Of a stretch of 24,712 nt of DNA, positions 1,569 to 22,865 are shown piece after piece. Each line of letters starts with the position of its first letter. The first letter of the stretch is position 1. Origin of the DNA: a virus (lineage: Duplodnaviria; Heunggongvirae; Uroviricota; Caudoviricetes). The stretch lies in IMG/VR virus record IMGVR_UViG_2541047887_000002; one strand, given 5' to 3'. A program made the translations under genes and the position numbers. The notes below the pieces were generated by a model. It had not been told where the DNA came from and ran no database searches. It saw nothing but the letters and a program-made list of their open reading frames with translations.

Positions 1569-1867
1569 CAGTGAGTGACCTCTTCAAAGGTACAGTTAAA
1601 ATCGGTATACATGGCATTATCCGAAATGCTCCACTCCCTGCAGACAACCCGGACAGTCCTGTTGTGTTTTGGCGGACGCCACAAAAAAGCACGAACCCCG
1701 GCATGACGGGATAAAAAACTGTCCAGCGCGGCACGGGAATATTCATCCGTGACACGAAATACCGGTTTAAACGTTTTCAGATCTGCATTCAGACCACCAG
1801 CCCGTCGCTGTTCATATCCGTCACCGAACTTTACCGTAATAACAGATGGCTTTCGTGTCGTCTCCAT
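1568..1867 (-). CDS. M: Minor tail protein M (lambda gpM-like)
   Basis: ATG at 1865-1867 (METTRKPSVITVKFGDGYEQR...), preceded by a GAGGGG Shine-Dalgarno. The upstream extension in the track would overlap the tape measure stop, so the internal start was chosen. Confidence 0.8.
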   Translation of the reverse strand: METTRKPSVITVKFGDGYEQRRAGGLNADLKTFKPVFRVTDEYSRAALDSFLSRHAGVRAFLWRPPKHNRTVRVVCREWSISDNAMYTDFNCTFEEVTH

Positions 1868-1901
1868 CCCCTCGCGGGGGATCCAGTTAAAAACTTCAGA
1901 C

Positions 1902-4900
1902 TCAGGCACTGCATAATCCTCCGTCCCGACGTGATGACTGCATAATTGACACAACCCTGCTGTCGATCAGATCCACCAGTCCCCTGGCTGAGCGCGCATC
2001 TATCTCGCCATTGCTCCCTTGATTCTGAATGCTGATGTGATACACGGGAGAATAAACAAATCCACCGCCACCATTCACATTTCCAATGGCCCTGACCCCA
2101 AGAGAGCCGTCCGCTGCCCGTGTCAGTGGCATGATTGCTTCAGGCCCGGCCTCGCCCATCAGCCCGGCACCTTTCGCAAAAGCAAAATACGTCGGGGTAT
2201 CCACAATGGTGTTACTGTAAGCACTCAGATTTGCCGATGTATAAACACCACCTTTTGCGTTTGCCACTGCACCGGAAAGCCAGTCGCCGACTGTACCAAG
2301 CCATCCTCCGGCACCGGACATGCTTTTGGAAAGTGACTTCAGCCCGTTAACGATGGCAGCGTTCATCAGAATTTTTGAAACTTCCTGGAGAATTGAACTC
2401 CCCCAGTTTCTCCAGTCCACAACATTTCCGGCCAGTGCATCGGAAATATTTGATACCAGCCCGTCCATAGTGGAAACGACAGCATCTGCCGCCTGCGAAG
2501 CATAATCGGTGGCACTGTCTGCCCAGTTCGTCAGTCCCTCCTGGAGTCCGGCATTCCAGTTACTGCGTAAAGCATCAGCCTTTGCATAATAATCCTGCTG
2601 ATCGCTGAGACGCTCTTCCAGATATTTTTCATTCAGAGATTTTTCCTGTTTCCACAGGGCTTCTTCAATTTCTCCGGCCTGATACTGTCTCAGTAGCTCG
2701 TTATTTTTCTGCTCAAACTCCTGCCGGATGCTCCACATTTCCTGAAGTCGTTCACGCATCCGTGAGCCTTCACCATATCCCAGTAACTGAGCCTCATTTG
2801 ATGCTCTGACACTGGCATTACTGTCCGCCAGACTGCTCTCATACGCAGCAAGCTGCTCACGAATCTTTTTCTGGTCGATGAGTGCTGCATTCTGCAAAAG
2901 CGTTTTTTTCTGCGCTTCTGACAGGGTTGATAATTCGCCCTGGCTGACCTGATATTTCATCTTAGCCAGTTCAGTATTCTGCCCTGCCAGTGCTATTTGC
3001 TCTTTTTGCTGTTTAATCAGTTGCTTATAAGTATCTTCTATTTTTTCCGCTTCGGTCTTTTTATGCGCTTTGGGTTTATTTGCCTGGTTATTTCGCCATG
3101 CATCCAGTGAGTTATTTATATAATTCAGTCTTGCTGTCTGATACGCCTCTCCCACAAAGCCGAGATCATCCGCAGCATAACCCAGGCGGGCACGCTCACG
3201 AGCTTCCCCCTTCAGGCGGGACAGAGCCAGTTCGCGCTCGCTGTTATTCAGTGCGGTCTGCTGTTTATCATCCAGGGTTGCCTGTGGTAGCCGTAACGGT
3301 ACATTCACCAGCCCCTGTCGCTGCTGAAGTAATTCATTACCGAGCCCGAGAAGGCGATTAAACTCGGTATGCTGCCCATTCATGATCAACAGGGACTGAT
3401 ACGCTTTGTTTTGTTCCGCTGCCTGTTGACGGATCAACGCCACCCGTCGCTCCTCCAGCCCGGCAAGCACATCCTGAATGGATTGCGCTTTGCCCTGCAT
3501 TTGAGTGAGGCGAGACTGTTCAACTGCCAGTTGATTTGTTGCTTCTGCAAGCCCTTCTGTGACAGTTTTTACCGACGTCATGTGGTTAATCATAAAACCG
3601 TTATCGGTTGTCCAGCCCGGGTTTGCCAGCACATACTGATAGCCAGCAATTTTTTCCTGTAAGGATTTAATCTTACTTTTCTGCTCGTCAATTAACCTGT
3701 TTTGCTCCTTCAGTGCCTGTCGCGTCTTTTCCTCATTATCTGACGCTTCAGGAAGCGACATTGCCGACGTTTTCTGGCGAATTTCGTCGATTGTTGCGGC
3801 ATACTGTCGTGCAGATTCTCTGGCCTGCTCCTGATTCTGATACATCGTGTACCAGGCCGCAGCCCCCAGCATGACGAGTCCCGGCACACCACCAACCAGC
3901 CCCAGCGCGCCACTTAATAAACGACTCCCCACTGACGTAACATTATTCAGCGTTGTCTGTGCCGCTGTTCTGGCCGCAATATTACGGGTAAGTGACACCT
4001 GGGCAGCTGTCAGCTTCGCTTCTGCTGCGGCCTGCCTTTCGGTACCGCGAGCAGCAACAACCGCCTGTTGCGCACGATAAACCGCCGCACGCGCCCTGGC
4101 GGTTGCTATCTGTGTCCCCCGAAGTTGCACTTCAGCAAGAGCCACTTCGTTTCTGGCTGCAGTAATTAATCCGGCAGTTGCAGATCCAGCAGACGACGCC
4201 ATATTGCCAAAATATCGGGCTACCCCGACGGCAACCAGAGCACCAGCAGCGGTTGCCACGGTGTCAATATTGCCTGCAATACCATTCAGCACACCGGAGA
4301 GCGTCTTCGTCACTCCGCTTGCCTCGTTCGCACCACCAACCCAGGCCATAAAGGCGTTTTCAACTTTGGTTGCAGAGGATGAAACCGTATCAGGCATTGC
4401 TGCATATTCATCACGCAACGCCCCAAGCTGACTAATCAGTGCAGGAACAACCTTATCGGCGGTCAGTTTTCCGTTATCCGCCATGGCCTTCAGATCCTTA
4501 CGGGCAACCCCCATTCCCGCAGCCAGCGCACGAATAACACGATCGCCGTTCTCATTCACCGAGTTAAACTCTTCACCGCGCAGCACTCCCTGCGCCAGTG
4601 CCTGACTGAACTGCGTGATCACCGAACTGGCTTCTGCTGTACTGGCACCGGATAATTTCAGGCCCGTGGAGATCGCCTCGGTGACTTTCAGTACCTCCTC
4701 AGAACTGTAACCATACTCCCGCATGGAAGCTGCAGAACGGGCAAAAAGGCTGGCGTTATCAGAAAACGCCGTCCCCGTTCTCTGGCTGATCGCCATTAAT
4801 TCACGCTGTGATGACTGAAAATCATCACTGGACTGTGAGGCCTGCTTCAGACGGGCATTTACTGAATTCCACTCATCGGCGAGAGAAATAAGATGACCGG

Positions 4901-5876: not shown

Positions 5877-6580
5877 TAACTGACGGTAACAGTGCAGGAA
5901 GTAGAGGTCACTTTGTTAACCGGGCTTGCTGAATCAGAAATCTCGCAGGTATATGCACCCGCATCACCGGATACTGCCGATGCCTTACTGAACGTTGCCG
6001 CCGTCTGTCCGGAAACAGGAGAACCACCTTTCTTCCAGACATAAGAATAAGGCGGCACACCACCCGCAGCCTCAACCGCCATTTCAAGTTTCGATCCGGA
6101 AGCAACCCGCAGCGTGCTTTTTAAATCGACCTTCACTTTCAGCGGCTCTGTCGTCAGCACAGGTTTACCTTTCAGGCGCAGAGAAAACGTTGCAGCCACA
6201 ACACCATTGGTTCCTGCAGACCAGGTATGCTGACGCACCTCTGCCATAAAGGTAAATCCGTTGCCTGACGGAAAAATAACTTTAAAGCCATACGTGGTGT
6301 CATTGTCATAGGCACTGCGCAACGCGTTCTGGGCAGCATTGAGGTAAAAGTTGCCTGACATGGAAATCTCTGAAGCAGCACCAAGGCCGTTAATATTTTC
6401 CTGCTCAACAGAACACAGCGTGGTGACATCAATATCCTGCTTTTGTCCTGCAGTAAACTGCACCTCTTTGATTGTACAGCTCAGGCCAAGATAGCTGGCA
6501 GAATCCAGGGTTTCTGCTGTTACCGGTGCAGACGAAATCATAATTTTCGTCAGTTGCGAACGCTCAAAATTAGAGGACAT
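5876..6580 (-). CDS. V: Major tail protein with C-terminal Ig-like domain
   Basis: ATG at 6578-6580 (MSSNFERSQ...) with an AGGAGA Shine-Dalgarno. The C-terminal segment GGVPPYSYVWKKGGSPVSG...AGAYTCEISD resembles a Big_2/Ig-like domain. Confidence 0.85.
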   Translation of the reverse strand: MSSNFERSQLTKIMISSAPVTAETLDSASYLGLSCTIKEVQFTAGQKQDIDVTTLCSVEQENINGLGAASEISMSGNFYLNAAQNALRSAYDNDTTYGFKVIFPSGNGFTFMAEVRQHTWSAGTNGVVAATFSLRLKGKPVLTTEPLKVKVDLKSTLRVASGSKLEMAVEAAGGVPPYSYVWKKGGSPVSGQTAATFSKASAVSGDAGAYTCEISDSASPVNKVTSTSCTVTVS

Positions 6581-6596
6581 ACTCGTCTCCTGAAAA

Positions 6597-6618
6597 TAAA
6601 AAACCCGCCAGCGGCGGG
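6597..6618 (-). terminator. Intrinsic terminator-like hairpin upstream of the major tail gene
   Basis: Minus strand reads CCCGCCGCUGGCGGG followed by UUUUUAUUUU, in the gap between the tail completion gene and V. Confidence 0.45.
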
Positions 6619-6639
6619 TGGGTAAAATCATTAACGACC

Positions 6640-6984
6640 TCAGGCTATTACCTGAAATTCAAGCGTGGCTCTGCTCAGACGGGAGTCAGGATCATACCCC
6701 TGCGTTTTAGAAATAACGGAGGGTGCCAGTTTCCTTACTGCATCAAGCGCCTGCTCACGAATATCATCTGCGTCATCAGGTACTGTCGCCCAGACATCGA
6801 TCTGCACGGTAATTCTGGATTCAGCCTGCCCATCAAGCACATCAGATGCCGTGTCAGACACCACAGAAAACACCAGCCACGGCGGAGATACCGCAGGCTT
6901 TCCCTCCGTCAGCGGGACCACATAAGGATAAACCTGTCCTCCGGCCAGCTGAGACAACAGGGAATACAGTGTGCCCTCCCTCAT
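6640..6984 (-). CDS. Tail completion/terminator protein (DUF3168-like); family assignment tentative
   Basis: 114-aa ORF in the conserved position just upstream of the major tail gene. Overlaps the next gene by 4 nt. Confidence 0.7.
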   Translation of the reverse strand: MREGTLYSLLSQLAGGQVYPYVVPLTEGKPAVSPPWLVFSVVSDTASDVLDGQAESRITVQIDVWATVPDDADDIREQALDAVRKLAPSVISKTQGYDPDSRLSRATLEFQVIA

Positions 6985-7430
6985 TTACTTAAGACCTCAT
7001 CAATAGCCTGATTCATTCGCTGTATGGCAACCTGCGCCGCCAGCTCCTCTGTCGTATCGAAAGCCGGGCGAATGAATGGATGCGCGGGCATGTTTATCGT
7101 TCCCAGCTCCACAAAGCGCCAGTAAAATGCATTTCGGGGATCGCTGGCTTTCATGCTGTTATCACTGTTTCCGGTTCGCAGGTTCCGTCCGCGAATGTGG
7201 ACACCCGAGATAATTTCCCCCCGACGCTTTGAACGCTGAGTGAGAACAACCACATTTTTCTTCAGTTTCCCGGTTCGCTCCGGCGCACGTTCAACAACTG
7301 CATCCCGCATAACTTCAGCACCGGCACGGGTGGCATCGCGCAGAACCTTATTGTTTTCTGCCCTGCTGAGCGTCTCCAGATCCCGTGCAATATCCGCCAG
7401 GCCGGAAAAATCAAGACTGAAATCCATCAC
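6981..7430 (-). CDS. HK97 gp10-family head-tail joining protein
   Basis: 149-aa ORF MMDFSLDFSGLADIARDLE..., translationally coupled to its neighbours. The position and start motif fit the HK97 gp10 family. Confidence 0.75.
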   Translation of the reverse strand: MMDFSLDFSGLADIARDLETLSRAENNKVLRDATRAGAEVMRDAVVERAPERTGKLKKNVVVLTQRSKRRGEIISGVHIRGRNLRTGNSDNSMKASDPRNAFYWRFVELGTINMPAHPFIRPAFDTTEELAAQVAIQRMNQAIDEVLSK

Positions 7431-7765
7431 ACATTCCCCTTCAGGCTGCAGAGTATTTCAAGCCGGGTAGCGCGTGCATCCGGTATTGGTGGACCTTCTA
7501 TACCCAGAATGGCCCCTTTAAATGCACCGGTCAGCACTTTCAGACGTGAAGTCGCTGTCACATCGCGCCGGAATCTCATCCAGACTCTGACCGTAGCCTG
7601 AGCGGTTTCTGCTCCGCCTGAGATTATCTCCCTCCCGCTGATACCCTTAACTTCTGCCCATACGGTAGCTCCCTCCGTCACCGTCTCCACCGGATGCCCT
7701 GACGGAGAGCGGGCGGTGGTGACATTCAGAATAATTACGCGATCACGTAATCTGCCCGCCTGCAT
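7427..7765 (-). CDS. Head-tail adaptor / head closure protein
   Basis: 112-aa ORF with synteny between the connector and gp10-like genes. Overlaps the next gene by 4 nt. Confidence 0.75.
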   Translation of the reverse strand: MQAGRLRDRVIILNVTTARSPSGHPVETVTEGATVWAEVKGISGREIISGGAETAQATVRVWMRFRRDVTATSRLKVLTGAFKGAILGIEGPPIPDARATRLEILCSLKGNV

Positions 7766-7773
7766 GTCTCCTC

Positions 7774-8091
7774 CTACAAAGGAATAAAACGATAAGGCTC
7801 CAGCAGAGAAGAAAAACCAAACGGGACTGGTGCCTTGCTGACATCTGAGGAATTTTCCCGGTTTTCGTACCAGTGCCCGACCAGCAACATGAGCGCCAGC
7901 AAAACATCATCAGCTATAAGCACCCCTTCAGGATCACCTTCCGGCACCGTCTCCTCATAAAGCTTACGGTTGATAAAATTTTCTGCCTTGCGGCAGGCAG
8001 CCCGGAAATACAGCATCAGTAACTCATCATCAGTTGCATCATCTGTATCAATACGGCACTGCGCCCTGAGTTTTTCCACTATTGCTGCCAT
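7774..8091 (-). CDS. gp6-like head-tail connector protein
   Basis: ATG at 8089-8091 (MAAIVEKLRAQCRIDTDDATDDELL...) with an AGGAG Shine-Dalgarno. The longer track ORF would overlap the capsid gene, so this internal start was chosen. Confidence 0.75.
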   Translation of the reverse strand: MAAIVEKLRAQCRIDTDDATDDELLMLYFRAACRKAENFINRKLYEETVPEGDPEGVLIADDVLLALMLLVGHWYENRENSSDVSKAPVPFGFSSLLEPYRFIPL

Positions 8092-8124
8092 CAGAAACTC
8101 CTGCCCGCAACACTGTGCGGGCAT

Positions 8125-8146
8125 AAAAAAACCGCGTCGGCGCGGT
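8125..8146 (-). terminator. Intrinsic terminator downstream of the major capsid gene
   Basis: Minus strand reads ACCGCGCCGACGCGGU followed by UUUUUU. A second hairpin (GCCCGCA...UGCGGGC) lies at 8102-8121. Confidence 0.5.
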
Positions 8147-8167
8147 CTGTAACTGAACAACGAGTGG

Positions 8168-9385
8168 TTATTTGCCAGTGAGCGCCTTGATGGCTGCCAC
8201 ATCTTCCAGCACACAGTCAAAACGATGGAAAGCCAGAAATGCCACCTGATCAAACTCAGCATAACGCTCAACCAGACGTTTCAGTTCCATATAAGTAACG
8301 CGGCGAATGATAAAGCGGTTGAAATCCCCCAGGAAAATGAATTTTTTTCCGGTACCAATCCCGTCAATAGCCTGATCAATAACATAAGGGATCCCCAGCA
8401 CAGTAGCCGGCGTACCGCCTGCAATATCCGGCAGCCATAACGGGCGTTTCTGCCCATCCTCCATCTCTTCAATAGTCTGCAATGTGGCATCATTGAATGC
8501 CCAGCGGTATTTCGGCCCACCACGATATGCCGGATCAATGGCATGTTTCAGGGCATTCATTTCTTTCCAGGTGAAAGCGGCAGAGGCTGCAGTCTGGATG
8601 GTTCCCGTCACCGACGCTGCCAGCCCTTTTGGCTGTAACGGTGATCCCGTTCCGGTCCCCTGAACCAGATATTTTGCCTCTCCACGACCAATACGCTGGG
8701 CAATACGGTTTGCCAGATAAGATTCAATATCCACCCCACTGTCCTGGAGCAGCTCATTGGACACACGAATTATTTTTGATGACAGCTTTTTAGCCCCCAG
8801 AATAGCGGTCCCGAACGTCACATCCTGTTCCGTTGCGGCTGTATTTTCCGCCAGCAGTTCGCCCTCTTCAGTCGTGCCATCAGACGTTGACCAGGTGATA
8901 TCCTGCCCGGTTGATGTGGTCAGAAGTTGCGCCACACTGGCAATCCCGCCATAAGCCTTCATGGTGTCAATGATTTTGTTACGCATCTGCGTGGGCACCG
9001 TATATCCGCCCTGAGAATCCGTTGTTACACTCTGAGCCCGCAGTTCACGCATCAGATTACGCTCTTCAGCATTCAGTTCTGCAAATCCGGCACGCAGAAA
9101 ACGGTTAAATGCCGCAGCGCGCTTCTCTTCCACCGCCTTTTTCCCGTTCTCCGCCTCATTATTCTGGCGCTCTTCCGGCCCGGACTCATCCACATATGCC
9201 TGATCCTGACGGCGCAACTCTTCTTCACGGGCGATTTGCTCATCCAGCGCATCCAGCTCAGCTTTCGCCCTGTTCCACTCTGCCCGTTGCTCATCAGTCC
9301 ATGCGTTATCACCAATTTTTTCATGCAGTGCACGCATATCCTTTGCAATGGTGTTTCGTTTTTGCTTCATCTCATGAAGTTTCAT
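8168..9385 (-). CDS. Major capsid protein, HK97 family, with N-terminal delta/scaffold domain
   Basis: 405-aa ORF with a coiled-coil N-terminal about 100 aa and a C-terminal HK97-fold region. Follows the prohead protease as in HK97. Confidence 0.9.
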   Translation of the reverse strand: MKLHEMKQKRNTIAKDMRALHEKIGDNAWTDEQRAEWNRAKAELDALDEQIAREEELRRQDQAYVDESGPEERQNNEAENGKKAVEEKRAAAFNRFLRAGFAELNAEERNLMRELRAQSVTTDSQGGYTVPTQMRNKIIDTMKAYGGIASVAQLLTTSTGQDITWSTSDGTTEEGELLAENTAATEQDVTFGTAILGAKKLSSKIIRVSNELLQDSGVDIESYLANRIAQRIGRGEAKYLVQGTGTGSPLQPKGLAASVTGTIQTAASAAFTWKEMNALKHAIDPAYRGGPKYRWAFNDATLQTIEEMEDGQKRPLWLPDIAGGTPATVLGIPYVIDQAIDGIGTGKKFIFLGDFNRFIIRRVTYMELKRLVERYAEFDQVAFLAFHRFDCVLEDVAAIKALTGK

Positions 9386-9399
9386 CGTCAGTAGTATCC

Positions 9400-9999
9400 T
9401 TATGCATTAAGAAGGGTCAAAAGACGCTCACGCGCCATTCGTTCGTTAACAGCTTTCTTCAGCGCACCACTCGCCCGCGCTTCCTGCCAGGCTTTCATTG
9501 AGCGGACACCAGAGTCTGCGTCCTGATAGGCCGGATATGTCACCGGGCTGACGTCATACAGACGAGAAATGCGCGTGATTTCCCGGATAACAATCCCCTC
9601 GTCGTCTTCATACCAGCTCTCTCCGTCACGGGCGACACGAAACGCGAACGAGGACTGATTAATGTCACCACGCAACATTGGAGACAGCACCAGGTCACAA
9701 ATAGTCGGAGTATCCGGTGCAACAATGTCATAACGTAAACCGCGTTCATCCACCGACAATGACAACGTGCCGGCAGAACTTCGTCCGAGAATGAAATTAG
9801 GATCATGATTAAACAAGCCACGTACATCATCATTCAGTACATCATCAAAAGCCCCCGGCTTGATGATTTCACGAAATCCCCACAGAGGTTCTGAACGACT
9901 GTTAAATACCGAGCCATACCCCAGAATGTGGGTCGGGGCATTATCATATTGTTCCGCCCGCACCTCCCCGCTGTAACAGCGCGTTTCACGGTCATTCAT
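9400..9999 (-). CDS. Prohead maturation protease, HK97 family
   Basis: 199-aa ORF between portal and capsid genes. Its start overlaps the portal stop (ATGAATGA). Confidence 0.85.
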   Translation of the reverse strand: MNDRETRCYSGEVRAEQYDNAPTHILGYGSVFNSRSEPLWGFREIIKPGAFDDVLNDDVRGLFNHDPNFILGRSSAGTLSLSVDERGLRYDIVAPDTPTICDLVLSPMLRGDINQSSFAFRVARDGESWYEDDEGIVIREITRISRLYDVSPVTYPAYQDADSGVRSMKAWQEARASGALKKAVNERMARERLLTLLNA

Positions 10000-11218
10000 C
10001 GTTCTTTTCCTCTTTGCCTTTCGTATCTTTAAAGTTATTCAACGGATTTGCTGCATTTACGCTGACCAGCATTTCATCCAGACCGTCAACCGGGTTCATA
10101 TCCTCAAATGCCCTGGCTTCATTCCGACTCATCCAGCCATCTGTAATGGCAAAGTGATAGAACTGCGCACGCTCCTGTGGGGTCCCACGGAGCAACCCCG
10201 TGAGGTTGAAACGAACGTAATACCCGGCAGCCCGTTCTGTACGGGTAAACAGGCGACGGTTAAGCTCCTGCTCCCAGTTCGCAACCCAGGGCATCATCGT
10301 GTAGCGAACAAACTGAATCGCCTGCTGCGTAATATTCGAAAATGTGGCTTTTTCCAGGTCATTAATCATGTGCGCCGGGACATTAAAAATCCCGGCAATC
10401 ATCGACCGGTTCAGCTTGGTCATATCAATGATCTGAGCATCCACCGGAGAAACTGTCAGAGCGCGGTAATCCAGTTGCGCAGGCAGCAACATGGTTTTAT
10501 TTTCCTGGCTGCGAAGCGCTGTCACCGCCCGCTGCCACATATTTTTAAGCCTGCCCCAGCTTTGTTCGTTCAGTTCATTTTTCACAGAAATAATACCGGC
10601 AGGACGGGCATTACCGTTAAAAAAGGCGCTGGTATACTGCTGGCCACTCATTCCCATACCAATGGTTTCAGCATGCTGCATGATCGGGCTCAGTCCCATT
10701 TTCTGATTGTTTCCCAGCGCCCTGATATGGATCATGTCGTCCGGACTTACCGCAAATGCACCCTCTTCGTTATACACCCCGTAAGTATGACGCCCACCGG
10801 TGTTAAGTAACGTGGTTTCCCATGGCATACAGCATTCAAGGCTGGTAACCTCTCCACGACGATTACGTTTTACCCACGTATAACCATTGCCCCACCCCAG
10901 CACATGACGCTGCTTCAGTTCCCGCCACTTATAGCTGGTCTGCCAGGCATTAGGTTCATCATGAACGAGCCAGAACAACGGATGATCGCGTGCCGGCTGA
11001 ACATGCTCATTCGTTTTTCGCATCACATGCAGGGGCATCTGAGCCACACTGGATGAAATAACATAAATACAGGCATAGACAGCAGCCAGCTTCATGGATG
11101 TTTCCGGACTGACATACACATCCCGGGCAAAAATATTATCCGTCTCAGCGGCCTCTCCGGTTACCGGAACCGAGGGATTTTCCAGAGGCTCACTGCGAAA
11201 CAGAGCATCAAGAAGCAT
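9992..11218 (-). CDS. Portal protein, HK97 family
   Basis: 408-aa ORF downstream of the large terminase, with typical portal size and an acidic C-terminal tail. Confidence 0.9.
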   Translation of the reverse strand: MLLDALFRSEPLENPSVPVTGEAAETDNIFARDVYVSPETSMKLAAVYACIYVISSSVAQMPLHVMRKTNEHVQPARDHPLFWLVHDEPNAWQTSYKWRELKQRHVLGWGNGYTWVKRNRRGEVTSLECCMPWETTLLNTGGRHTYGVYNEEGAFAVSPDDMIHIRALGNNQKMGLSPIMQHAETIGMGMSGQQYTSAFFNGNARPAGIISVKNELNEQSWGRLKNMWQRAVTALRSQENKTMLLPAQLDYRALTVSPVDAQIIDMTKLNRSMIAGIFNVPAHMINDLEKATFSNITQQAIQFVRYTMMPWVANWEQELNRRLFTRTERAAGYYVRFNLTGLLRGTPQERAQFYHFAITDGWMSRNEARAFEDMNPVDGLDEMLVSVNAANPLNNFKDTKGKEEKNDE

Positions 11219-11348
11219 GTTTTCTCCTCATGGACACCACCAGTGCATAAAGCAGCAACAAACAGCCCGACAGCATCAGAGACGCTGGCAGACCTGCATA
11301 CAGATAAACGCCAGCAGTGAGCAAACCGAAACCGATCAGCCCGGTCAT
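11208..11348 (-). CDS. Hypothetical small hydrophobic protein (46 aa), possible membrane peptide
   Basis: Hand-translated minus-strand ORF MTGLIGFGLLTAGVYLYAGLPASLMLSGCLLLLYALVVSMRRKHAS, between the large terminase and portal genes and overlapping the portal ATG. No clear Shine-Dalgarno. Confidence 0.25.
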   Translation of the reverse strand: MTGLIGFGLLTAGVYLYAGLPASLMLSGCLLLLYALVVSMRRKHAS

Positions 11349-21448: not shown

Positions 21449-21475
21449 AAAAAACAAAACCCGCCGAAGCGGGTT
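21449..21475 (-). terminator. Intrinsic terminator downstream of hok
   Basis: Minus strand reads AACCCGC-UUCG-GCGGGUU followed by UUGUUUUUU. Confidence 0.6.
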
Positions 21476-21543
21476 AAGTGCGGGTGCGTTGAGGATGCCT
21501 GACACATCAGAGGCGGCGAGGGATTTCTCCCTCGCCAAGTCTC

Positions 21544-21699
21544 TTACTCCTCAGGTTCGTAGACTGTGAAGACAGCGACCTCCGTCTGGCCGGTTCGGAT
21601 TCGTACCTCGCAGAGGTCTTTCCTCGTTACCAGTGCCGTCACTATGACGGTTAAACAGATGACGATCAGGGCGATTAACATCGCCTTTTGCTGCTTCAT
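21544..21699 (-). CDS. hok: Hok-family type I toxin (HokD/RelF-like, 51 aa)
   Basis: MKQQKAMLIALIVICLTVIVTALVTRKDLCEVRIRTGQTEVAVFTVYEPEE is near-identical to E. coli HokD as I recall it. AAGGAG Shine-Dalgarno upstream. Confidence 0.85.
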   Translation of the reverse strand: MKQQKAMLIALIVICLTVIVTALVTRKDLCEVRIRTGQTEVAVFTVYEPEE

Positions 21700-21756
21700 A
21701 GCCTGCTTCTCCTTGCCTTTCGGCACGTAAGAGGCTAACCTAGATTTGCCGTTCAT
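21544..21756 (-). CDS. mok: Mok-like overlapping reading frame (translational coupler for hok)
   Basis: In-frame upstream extension of 70 aa from ATG 21754-21756, as in hok/mok/sok loci. Confidence 0.4.
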   Translation of the reverse strand: MNGKSRLASYVPKGKEKQAMKQQKAMLIALIVICLTVIVTALVTRKDLCEVRIRTGQTEVAVFTVYEPEE

Positions 21757-21952
21757 AGATTGAGCCTCAGATTAATGTTAAGCGTCTTGCAGGACGCGTA
21801 ATGTTAACTGGGGCTTTTCTCTATCTGCCTTTGGTGTTCATGCCTGAGGCAGATAGCCTCAAGCACCCGCAGCAATTCTACTTAAGTTAGATAAGCTTTT
21901 CTATGGTATTCTCTCAGCGTCCCGTAAATACAGTCTCGGCTCATCATTTTTA

Positions 21953-22210
21953 TCACAGGTGCGAGGAAAATATATAGCGCCCTCCATCAAGCATAACGAA
22001 ATACATTTTCCATTCATCGCCATTCCTCAATTTAATACGAAGACTTTCCCCGCAAGTGTATTTATTAAACAACTGTTCCGATGTGCTAGTAAGAGGTATT
22101 TTTACCGTTATTACAACTACTGCCCCACCATTTAACTCTCGAAGTTCAGCATCCGCATCCACAAAAGATGAATAAATGTTATGATCTGGGTAATCAACAA
22201 TTAACTGCAT
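21953..22210 (-). CDS. Hypothetical protein (85 aa) in an AT-rich island
   Basis: ATG at 22208-22210 with an AAGGAG Shine-Dalgarno 5 nt upstream. AT-rich flanks by eye. No motif recognised. Confidence 0.55.
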   Translation of the reverse strand: MQLIVDYPDHNIYSSFVDADAELRELNGGAVVVITVKIPLTSTSEQLFNKYTCGESLRIKLRNGDEWKMYFVMLDGGRYIFSSHL

Positions 22211-22349
22211 ATTCACTCCTTAAATATAGCAACTAAAACAAACAACGATTTAACAGTAGGAATTGTTTTTATAACATATGAACGGTGCAAGATCTATCCA
22301 GATGAAGCCTCCCCTCACACCCCCCGTCTCATTACATGCATTTACTATC

Positions 22350-22865
22350 TCACCGTAAAACATCCTCCACGCTTATCAGTCCGTTTCGCTTCAGGTAGTC
22401 CATCGCCTTCTCCGGTAATTTGCAGTCCGGCTTGGCTTTTTTCAGTTGGCTGACCAGTCGTTTAACCCACATTGTTAATTCGCTAACCTGATTGCCGGAA
22501 GCTGGTGGGTTGTCGGCTTTACCCAGAATGACAGCACTGCAGGCCTCTTTGAGTACCCAATCAACAGCATCTTTCCATGCTCCTGTTTCGACTGGTGGAT
22601 TCTCACGCTTTACCTGTTCATAAAAGCGCACGGCTTTAACCAGTCCTTCTGATGTCAGTGGCACAGGCGGGGCAGTGAATAACGCCTGAATTTCATAGCT
22701 CGGCCTGTCGTTGCAATCCTCTTTTGTCGGTACATATTTCCAGTCACCAACCCACGGCTCCCCCTGTGAGTCCGTAATGCCTTTTTTCACGTAGCGATAT
22801 CGCCATGCAACTGGTTTTGCCTGCCCTGCCGTTTCATGTCCTTCCTGATAATTAATCTCGCTCAT
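22350..22865 (-). CDS. Hypothetical phage protein (171 aa)
   Basis: ORF whose start overlaps the stop of the upstream small ORF (ATGA). Confidence 0.6.
   Translation of the reverse strand: MSEINYQEGHETAGQAKPVAWRYRYVKKGITDSQGEPWVGDWKYVPTKEDCNDRPSYEIQALFTAPPVPLTSEGLVKAVRFYEQVKRENPPVETGAWKDAVDWVLKEACSAVILGKADNPPASGNQVSELTMWVKRLVSQLKKAKPDCKLPEKAMDYLKRNGLISVEDVLR

What the first reader, a model, noticed from the sequence alone, without database searches (positions are those of the whole stretch)
21953..22349. Orphan 85-aa gene with strong ribosome-binding site in an AT-rich island next to hok
The ORF has a near-ideal AAGGAG Shine-Dalgarno 5 nt from its ATG and AT-rich flanks unlike the surrounding phage DNA. 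No motif is recognisable. Its position between early recombination genes and the hok toxin, in a compositionally foreign patch, is where lambdoid phages often carry superinfection-exclusion, kil-like or anti-defence genes.
Basis: inference. Interest (0 to 1): 0.5.

Follow-up and report, generated by a model that had tools for sequence, protein, structure and literature searches.

The report
Small prophage accessory gene, YebV-like fold
The 85-codon ORF is a real, selected gene in a swappable AT-rich cassette just upstream of hok in an E. coli lambdoid prophage; it belongs to an undescribed family of small prophage proteins predicted to share the fold of the uncharacterised protein YebV, and nothing yet shows what it does.

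Summary
An 85-aa ORF (21953-22210, minus strand) has AAGGAG 5 nt before its ATG. It lies in a 464-bp patch of about 38% GC (21886-22349), directly upstream of a complete hok/mok/sok locus.

The gene is not a true orphan. An exhaustive profile search found 85-aa homologues (31-45% identity) in lambdoid prophages of E. coli, E. albertii, Klebsiella and Raoultella. dN/dS across the family is 0.06-0.55, and 0.27 on the window's branch. The ribosome-binding site is kept throughout. Several copies are frameshifted or truncated.

Relatives sit in the region between the replication genes and Q. They often lie just after a C5 DNA methyltransferase, or its remnant, and before HolE-like theta and DinI genes. 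In sibling prophages with the same flanks the cassette is replaced by small membrane-peptide ORFs.

The likeliest reading is a dispensable, early-operon, partner-binding accessory protein. Exclusion, kil-like or anti-defence roles are untested and have no specific support. Interest is modest.

The parts
21953..22210 (-). 85-aa CDS (stop codon included) encoding a small soluble protein predicted to form a six-stranded split beta-barrel with one helix.
22216..22221 (-). Shine-Dalgarno AAGGAG, 5 nt (TGAAT) upstream of the ATG.
   Evidence: Read directly from the sequence. A purine-rich ribosome-binding site is kept in all subfamilies: AAGGAG, AAGGAA, AAGGGG or AGGAG.
21886..22349 (-). AT-rich 464-bp cassette carrying the ORF with its 5' and 3' untranslated flanks. 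It is bounded by the stop codon of the upstream gene and by the start of hok-locus homology.
   Evidence: Alignment with three E. coli prophages that share the flanks shows homology breaking at about 21886 and resuming at 22350. Phage-database homology to the hok locus also ends at 21885. GC profile.
22268..22276 (-). Candidate extended -10 element (TGTTATAAA), 66 nt upstream of the ATG. A weak, unproven possible promoter of its own.
   Evidence: It is kept in the window, 442/2 and SRR19159541 alleles while the neighbouring bases diverge. It is not conserved in the distant subfamilies, where the matching bases are the 3' end of a methyltransferase gene. The consensus scan did not call it.
22350..22865 (-). 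Upstream co-directional gene (171 aa, phrog_660, Ea22-like C-terminal region). Its stop codon is the cassette boundary.
   Evidence: PHROGs 1.9e-74. PGAP names the frameshifted homologue in strain 442/2 'ead/Ea22-like family protein'.
21544..21756 (-). The mok reading frame (70 aa), containing hok (21544-21699, 51 aa). This is a type I toxin gene immediately downstream and is not part of the cassette.
   Evidence: Pfam HOK_GEF 6.4e-22. PHROG MokW-like 7.9e-32. PGAP annotates hokD.
21694..21868 (-). The hok mRNA leader and sok antisense region. A hok promoter-like site lies at 21903-21875, and its -35 hexamer falls inside the cassette.
   Evidence: Rfam RF01794 scores 111.7 bits against a gathering score of 59. 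Promoter-like hit TAGAAA-17-TAGAAT.
21458..21475 (-). The first intrinsic-terminator-like hairpin downstream on the gene strand, after hok. None is found between 24712 and this point.
   Evidence: Terminator scans. The ORF's 3' untranslated region has no unusual structure (z -0.6).

Best explanation
Shown: the ORF is a real, translated, dispensable accessory gene of a lambdoid (Rac/Qin-like) E. coli prophage. It belongs to a previously undescribed family of 85-aa proteins confined to prophages of Enterobacteriaceae. These proteins are predicted to fold as a six-stranded split beta-barrel capped by one short helix. This is the same topology as the uncharacterised chromosomal protein YebV (DUF1480). 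The gene sits in a self-contained AT-rich cassette that recombination swaps in and out just upstream of hok.

Inferred: it is transcribed with the rightward early (pR) operon, because it is co-directional with it and no terminator lies upstream. It is translated efficiently from its strong ribosome-binding site. It has no catalytic motif, membrane segment or nucleotide-binding motif. It most likely works by stoichiometric binding to a host or phage partner. The binding surface would be formed by the conserved I-P-x-T-S-T helix cap and the N-G-D hairpin. The partner is unknown. The ancestral neighbours (C5 DNA methyltransferase upstream, HolE-like theta and DinI downstream) make a factor in DNA replication, repair or modification the best guess.
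For: Coding and selection:
- dN/dS is 0.27 for the window against a 74%-identical allele.
- dN/dS is 0.06-0.31 among several pairs in the distant subfamilies, with dS up to 0.9.
- Length is constant at 85 aa and the ribosome-binding site is conserved.

Family:
- 15 close clusters, all from E. coli.
- An exhaustive hmmsearch of 1.8 billion representatives adds a distant branch.
- That branch contains members from Raoultella, Klebsiella, E. coli and E. albertii.

Fold:
- AlphaFold2 gives pLDDT 82 and pTM 0.72, with topology b1-b2-b3-helix-b4-b5-b6.
- The YebV crystal-structure paper describes the same topology (PMC11809132).

Context:
- The gene always lies between the replication genes and Q, on the same strand.
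- An intact C5 methyltransferase ends 48 nt upstream in L039-41, L043 and L044. In L043 and L044 the next genes downstream are theta and DinI; L040 and L041 carry a TonB_C-like ORF there instead.
- Methyltransferase 3' remnants lie upstream in L019, L024, L022 and L016.

Cassette and transcription:
- The cassette nature is shown by alignment A5.
- No terminator-like site lies on the gene strand from 24712 to 21475.
Against: - No experiment or homologue of known function exists, so the mechanism is inference only.
- The YebV link rests on one method. Foldseek against PDB finds nothing with E <= 0.001. hhalign gives P 0.076. My own profile alignment gives z 0.79. Pfam DUF1480 does not hit.
- The function of YebV itself is unknown, so the link says little about mechanism.
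- Frameshifted or truncated copies are frequent: P0010, P0011, P0013, P0015, P0017 and P0028, L042, and 3'-half remnants in 409 genomes. Selection is therefore easily relaxed.
- dN/dS between the two closest alleles is about 1, but this rests on only 9 changes.
- The methyltransferase, theta and DinI neighbours are absent from the window itself.
Confidence: 0.5

Rival explanations
1. It is a classical moron. The cassette has its own promoter, is expressed from the repressed prophage, and benefits the lysogen, for example by excluding superinfecting phage or by defence or anti-defence.
For: - It is a discrete AT-rich module, present or absent between conserved flanks.
- Alternative cargo occupies the same slot.
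- A candidate extended -10 element, TGTTATAAA, lies 66 nt upstream and is kept in three alleles.
- In E. coli relatives the gene borders a patch with GmrSD_N-, HNH_2- and GIY-YIG-domain genes.
Against: - No terminator follows the gene.
- No recognisable -35 element is present, and the scan did not call a promoter.
- The -10-like motif is not conserved in distant subfamilies. There it is methyltransferase coding sequence.
- There is no PADLOC match.
- The predicted fold is compact and mainly beta, with no long hydrophobic helix.
- In the likely ancestral arrangement the gene sits inside a tight methyltransferase-X-theta-DinI string, not in a stand-alone unit.
Confidence: 0.2
2. It is a functional partner of the phage C5 DNA methyltransferase and/or of the theta and DinI genes, for example a modulator of methylation, mismatch handling or Pol III proofreading. 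In the window it survives as a stranded remnant of that module.
For: - An intact 640-740-aa C5 methyltransferase (PF00145, 1.6e-19) ends 48 nt upstream in five IMG/VR loci. HolE-like theta (7.5e-35) and DinI (1.8e-26) follow directly downstream in L043 and L044.
- Methyltransferase 3' remnants persist upstream in two other subfamilies.
- There is an echo in E. coli K-12: yebV lies directly after the m5C methyltransferase gene rsmF and 3.1 kb before holE.
Against: - The gene stays intact and under selection where the methyltransferase is lost: the window, L019 and L024. Its function therefore does not need the methyltransferase.
- The phage methyltransferase and RsmF share no sequence similarity.
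- Adjacency in mosaic phage genomes is weak evidence of shared function.
Confidence: 0.15
3. In this lineage the ORF is an evolutionary leftover with no current function. It is kept only because the prophage is young.
For: - Frameshifted alleles occur in close relatives: P0010, P0011, P0013 and P0015.
- dN/dS is about 1 between the window and the 442/2 allele.
- The gene is rare, found in 42 of 5426 complete E. coli genomes.
- Truncated remnants of the sister type occur in 409 genomes.
Against: - dN/dS of 0.27 to the next allele and 0.06-0.55 family-wide show selection on the protein.
- 33 genomes carry it at >=99% identity, and every one of those examined has it intact.
- The ribosome-binding site and length are conserved across 31-45% identity.
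Confidence: 0.1
4. It is part of the hok/sok system, for example an extra regulator or a co-transcribed partner, as relBE is for hokD in K-12 Qin.
For: - It lies immediately upstream of hok, and the -35 of the hok promoter-like site lies in the cassette.
- In K-12 the homology to the window covers only the hok coding part (query 1-214). This agrees with my recollection that relB-relE precede hokD there.
Against: - The hok locus is complete on its own, with mok, hok and sok (111.7 bits).
- hok occurs in 4749 genomes, against 42 for the ORF.
- Most family members are not next to hok.
Confidence: 0.03

Closest known systems
YebV / DUF1480 (PF07351; crystal structure 8VVA of K. pneumoniae KPN_02352)
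   Same: - Similar size (78-80 aa against 85 aa).
- Six-stranded split beta-barrel with a single helix between strands 3 and 4.
- By eye, I-P before the helix and N-G-[DE]-x4-[YF]-x4-D in the b4-b5 hairpin line up with one 1-residue gap.
- Both are restricted to Enterobacterales.
   Different: - No detectable sequence homology.
- Foldseek does not recover the match.
- It lacks the conserved Cys pair of YebV.
- YebV is a highly conserved chromosomal gene reported as RpoS-controlled (PMC11809132). This one is a rare, mobile, AT-rich prophage cassette.
- YebV has no known function, so the comparison gives fold, not mechanism.
Lambdoid nin-region accessory genes and morons
   Same: - It lies between the replication genes and Q and is co-directional with them.
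- It is small and dispensable, with mosaic presence or absence and deviating GC.
   Different: - No sequence relation to any described nin gene or PHROG.
- No terminator of its own, and only a doubtful promoter.
PilZ domains and other small split barrels (FMN-binding split barrels, phage head-tail stopper proteins)
   Different: - No RxxxR or [D/N]xSxxG c-di-GMP motifs in the sequence (read directly).
- Too small for the FMN-binding dimers.
- It is encoded in the early region, not in the head-tail module.
relBE in the Qin prophage of E. coli K-12 and other cargo in the slot upstream of hokD
   Same: It occupies the variable slot just upstream of the hok locus. In sibling prophages that slot holds other small genes.
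   Different: It is a single gene, with no toxin-antitoxin pair architecture and no similarity to RelB or RelE.

Membership tests
DUF1480 / YebV (PF07351) | A match to the Pfam profile at or above the gathering score. | tested here: not met
   No PF07351 hit for any of 14 family members, even at E <= 10. hhalign of the family against a YebV alignment gives P 0.076. My own profile alignment gives z 0.79 against 1000 shuffles.
DUF1480 / YebV (PF07351) | A six-stranded split beta-barrel with one capping helix between b3 and b4. | tested here: met
DUF1480 / YebV (PF07351) | A conserved Cys32/Cys39 pair anchoring the helix, and an acidic patch (E12, D14, D15, S34, D35, D37). | tested here: not met
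   The window protein has a single Cys (C53). It reads IPLTSTSEQLF where YebV reads IPCKSDPDLCMQ.
DUF1480 / YebV (PF07351) | A conserved chromosomal locus (rsmF-yebV-yebW) and RpoS control. | tested here: not met
   The gene is in a prophage cassette. The K-12 locus was inspected. Regulation cannot be tested here.
Moron (autonomous prophage cargo unit) | Base composition distinct from the flanks, and presence or absence between conserved flanks. | tested here: met
   GC is 0.34-0.40 against about 0.50. Cassette boundaries are at 21886 and 22349, with alternative cargo in siblings.
Moron (autonomous prophage cargo unit) | Its own promoter. | tested here: inconclusive
   TGTTATAAA, 66 nt upstream, is conserved in the close alleles only. 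No -35 element is present. It is not called by the scan and is not conserved family-wide.
Moron (autonomous prophage cargo unit) | Its own terminator. | tested here: not met
   No terminator-like hairpin lies between the stop codon and the hok promoter.
Superinfection-exclusion / Kil-like proteins of lambdoid phages | Membrane association (Sie proteins), or location in the leftward early operon with division-inhibiting toxicity (Kil, KilR, DicB). | tested here: not met
   The predicted fold is compact and mainly beta with one 7-residue helix. The gene is in the rightward operon after the replication genes, while dicB lies on the other side of the immunity region. Toxicity cannot be tested here.
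Known anti-phage defence systems (PADLOC) | A match to any PADLOC profile. | tested here: not met
   0 of 14 family members match at E <= 1.
PilZ c-di-GMP receptors | RxxxR and [D/N]xSxxG binding motifs. | tested here: not met
hok/sok type I toxin-antitoxin locus | Being one of the locus components (hok, mok, sok, the fbi/tac elements). | tested here: not met
   All components map to 21544-21868. Locus homology in thousands of genomes ends at about 21885, outside the ORF.

The most novel reading that the evidence does not exclude
The 85-aa prophage family and chromosomal YebV are true, very distant homologues. In this reading yebV, like holE 3.1 kb away and the lambda-NinI-like pphA and prophage-type yebW between them, descends from an ancient lambdoid nin region in which a YebV-like gene sat between a cytosine methyltransferase and a theta gene. 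The phage proteins would then be the mobile ancestors or paralogues of a core stress protein. They would act on the same, still unknown, host partner in DNA or nucleoid transactions.
Probability: 0.12. Interest if true: 0.55.

Novelty: new variant of a known kind. Interest (0 to 1): 0.3.

Why it matters
If the reading is right, the main gain is bookkeeping. A recurrent hypothetical protein of E. coli and Klebsiella prophages gets a family, a predicted fold and defined cassette boundaries. The slot upstream of hok is shown to be a cargo-exchange point.

The YebV-like fold, and the recurring methyltransferase / X / theta / DinI neighbourhood, give two concrete and testable leads. The first is that YebV, a conserved enterobacterial protein of unknown function, may have phage-borne relatives. 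The second is that both may act on DNA-transaction factors. Neither lead is established here. Nothing suggests a new kind of system.

Tried and rejected
- **Library searches.** Pfam, PHROGs, NCBIfam and PADLOC gave no hit for the window protein or for any of the 14 aligned family members.
- **PDB sequence-profile search.** Only chance-level hits, E >= 0.2.
- **Structure with a shallow alignment.** The first AlphaFold2 run had 6 near-identical sequences and gave pLDDT 57, which is unusable. It was replaced by a 14-sequence run.
- **Foldseek.** Searches against BFVD and PDB gave nothing with E <= 0.001. The afdb50 library was unavailable.
- **Sequence link to YebV.** hhalign in local mode gave P 0.076. 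Global mode gave a degenerate alignment no better than shuffles. My own semi-global profile alignment gave z 0.79. Sequence homology is therefore not claimed.
- **A conserved extended -10 promoter across subfamilies.** Rejected. In distant relatives the similar bases are the 3' end of a methyltransferase gene, and they read TGCTACAAG where that gene is intact.
- **GTDB species representatives.** No relative found.
- **Plasmids.** No relative found.
- **Phage records.** The only match is the 8-kb 'Rac' fragment MN652886.
- **Literature.** Searches for the protein and record accessions found nothing.
- **Phage methyltransferase versus RsmF.** No similarity.
- **3' untranslated region as a terminator.** No unusual structure.

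Full report
**1. The observation**

The window is a lambdoid (Rac/Qin-like) E. coli prophage, with almost all genes on the minus strand. The region is 100% identical to the chromosomes of E. coli 2009C-3133, M1/5 and others.

- The flagged ORF runs from the ATG at 22208-22210 to the stop at 21953-21955, giving 85 aa.
- AAGGAG lies at 22216-22221, 5 nt from the ATG.
- The mechanical ORF list gives an 87-aa GTG start. That start overlaps the ribosome-binding site, and every homologue begins MQ or MK at the ATG. NCBI's PGAP also calls the 85-aa form, WP_001176099.1.
- GC falls to 0.34-0.40 over 21900-22400, against about 0.50 on both sides.
- The downstream neighbour is a complete hok/mok/sok locus. 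Pfam HOK_GEF scores 6.4e-22, and Rfam sok scores 111.7 bits at 21694-21868.

The map description is not. The neighbours upstream are small Ea22-like, DUF4406, DUF7167 and phrog_660 genes that follow the replication genes. Downstream come hok, DUF968, RusA and Q. This is the nin-like part of the rightward operon, not the recombination region.

**2. Is it a gene?**

Yes.

- A 5.8-billion-protein search finds 15 close clusters, all from E. coli.
- An intact allele at 74% identity (L004/L015) gives dN/dS of 0.27, with changes concentrated at third codon positions: 15, 9 and 23 by position.
- An exhaustive HMMER search of 1.84 billion cluster representatives adds a distant 85-aa protein, P0016.
- Searching with P0016 reveals a wider family in Raoultella, Klebsiella, E. 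coli and E. albertii. These are 31-42% identical to the window protein and almost all exactly 85 aa.
- Pairwise dN/dS inside that branch is 0.06-0.55, with dS up to 0.9.
- The ribosome-binding site is kept everywhere.
- Every member has 36-39% GC, whatever the host.

Against this, decay is common.

- Frameshifted alleles: P0010, P0011, P0013, P0015, P0017 and P0028.
- An internal stop in L042.
- An unannotated 3'-half remnant of the sister type in 409 complete E. coli genomes, including ST131.

The gene is rare. It occurs in 42 of 5426 complete E. coli genomes. It is absent from plasmids and from GTDB species representatives. Among 50,697 phage records it appears only in an 8-kb 'Rac' prophage fragment.

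**3. The cassette**

I aligned the window with three E. coli prophages that share both flanks at 92-94% identity.

- Homology breaks at about 21886, which is the upstream end of the hok locus. Phage-database homology ends at the same point.
- Homology resumes exactly at 22350, the stop codon of the phrog_660 gene.
- The 464 bp in between are the ORF with its untranslated flanks.
- In strain O22:H8 154 the slot holds a 27-aa hydrophobic ORF. In strains 315 and AR_0137 it holds a 59-72-aa membrane-type ORF.
- The hok locus is in 4749 of 5426 genomes, and the ORF in 42.

The ORF is therefore discrete, exchangeable cargo. It is not part of hok/sok.

**4. Transcription signals**

- No terminator-like hairpin lies on the gene strand between 24712 and the one after hok at 21475-21458.
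- The ORF's 3' untranslated region is not unusually structured.
- A possible extended -10 element (TGTTATAAA, 22268-22276) is conserved in the three close alleles. It has no -35 partner.
- I first thought this element was conserved across subfamilies. It is not. In the distant relatives the similar bases are the last codons (..CYKKEAA*) of a C5 methyltransferase gene, and they read TGCTACAAG where that gene is intact.

Read-through from the early rightward operon is therefore the simplest expression model. A promoter of its own remains possible, but only for the window subfamily.

**5. Family context**

Every relative lies between the replication genes and Q, on the same strand.

- In five IMG/VR loci (L039-41, L043, L044) an intact 640-740-aa C5 DNA methyltransferase (PF00145, 1.6e-19) ends 48 nt upstream.
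- In L043 and L044 the next genes downstream are a HolE-like theta subunit and a DinI homologue. The theta scores PF06440 7.5e-35 and is 62% identical to E. coli HolE. The DinI scores PF06183 1.8e-26. In L040 and L041 a TonB_C-like ORF follows instead.
- In the E. coli P0026 type and the Klebsiella/Raoultella type, only the 3' remnant of the methyltransferase survives upstream. Downstream lie theta fragments or variable cargo, including genes with GmrSD_N, HNH_2 and GIY-YIG domains.

The small gene stays intact and under selection without the methyltransferase, so it does not depend on it.

**6. Structure**

- With only near-identical sequences AlphaFold2 was poor, at pLDDT 57.
- With the 14-member alignment it gave pLDDT 82 and pTM 0.72. 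The elements are b2-7, b12-26, b29-39, helix 45-51, b56-61, b66-75 and b78-82.
- The YebV paper describes exactly this topology. It is a six-stranded split barrel with one helix between b3 and b4, monomeric, with function unknown (PMC11809132).

The link is not corroborated by other methods.

- Foldseek against PDB and BFVD finds nothing with E <= 0.001.
- Pfam DUF1480 does not hit.
- hhalign gives P 0.076.
- My own profile alignment is no better than shuffles, at z 0.79.

By eye, the family's invariant I38-P39, N63-G64-D65, Y70 and D75 line up with YebV I29-P30, N55-G56-E57, Y62 and D67, with a single one-residue gap. This is suggestive only. The protein works from the same kind of fold as YebV. 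Membership of DUF1480 is not established.

**7. Mechanism**

Shown: the gene is real and selected, belongs to a family, has a predicted fold, is a cassette, and has a consistent position.

Inferred: the protein is small and lacks catalytic, nucleotide-binding or membrane features. It has a conserved helix-cap and hairpin surface. It most likely acts by binding a partner when the early operon is on.

The ancestral methyltransferase / theta / DinI company makes a DNA-transaction factor the best guess. I give the whole package 0.5.

Rivals:
- A lysogen-expressed moron conferring exclusion or defence: 0.2.
- A stranded member of a methyltransferase/theta/DinI functional module: 0.15.
- A functionless leftover: 0.1.
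- A hok/sok accessory: 0.03.

**8. Novelty and verdict**

The family is absent from all four profile libraries and from the literature searched. However, it is one more small accessory gene of a lambdoid nin region. Its only distinctive feature is a predicted fold shared with a protein that is itself uncharacterised. It is best described as a new variant of a known kind, and interest is modest at 0.3.

The most novel reading not excluded is true homology with YebV, with yebV and nearby holE, pphA and yebW descending from an ancient prophage nin region. I put this at about 0.12.

Noticed in passing
L051 1911-1994 (-); L052 1959-2177 (-): In sibling prophages the slot upstream of hok holds unannotated small hydrophobic ORFs. 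One is 27 aa (MTWPEAFITVGIAMAVALVVYSICRWG), and its start overlaps the stop of the upstream gene. The other is a 59-72-aa membrane-type ORF. PGAP annotates neither.
   Followed up: partly
L027 4001-4183 (E. coli ST131 strain 751) and 408 other complete genomes: An unannotated remnant, 88% identical to the 3' half of the sister-type (P0026) 85-aa gene plus about 40 nt downstream. It sits in the variable cargo patch of a prophage, between a 232-aa hypothetical gene and an ImmA/IrrE-type pair.
   Followed up: partly
L026 (E. coli K-12) 6224-11339: The chromosomal yebV lies directly after the m5C methyltransferase gene rsmF. It is followed by yebW (DUF1482, a family also found in the prophage next to dicB in L002), by pphA (which I recall as resembling the lambda NinI phosphatase) and, 3.1 kb on, by holE. 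This echoes the phage order methyltransferase / 85-aa gene / theta. It may be coincidence or an ancient prophage remnant.
   Followed up: partly
L044 about 1862-3952; also L040, L043: A large (640-740 aa) phage C5 DNA methyltransferase with several repeated T[VI]TAGG / HHAVVA[AS]HL segments between the catalytic motifs. This may indicate multiple target-recognition domains.
   Followed up: no
window 21454-21541 (-): There is a weak Rfam match to the Hfq-binding sRNA IsrK (28.2 bits against a gathering score of 50, E 0.0014). It ends in the intrinsic terminator at 21475-21458, just downstream of hok. A near-identical terminator hairpin (CCCGCTTCGGCGGG followed by a T run) occurs in Klebsiella locus L024 at about 6728-6750.
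   Followed up: no
window 21875-21903 (-): The -35 hexamer of the hok promoter-like site (TAGAAA) lies inside the exchangeable cassette, while the -10 (TAGAAT) lies in the conserved hok locus. Cassette swaps therefore change the -35 context of hok.
   Followed up: no
L003 6448-6865; L050 2310-2626: The phrog_660 / Ea22-like gene just upstream of the cassette is frameshifted in strains 442/2 and AR_0137, which indicates ongoing decay of this prophage region.
   Followed up: no
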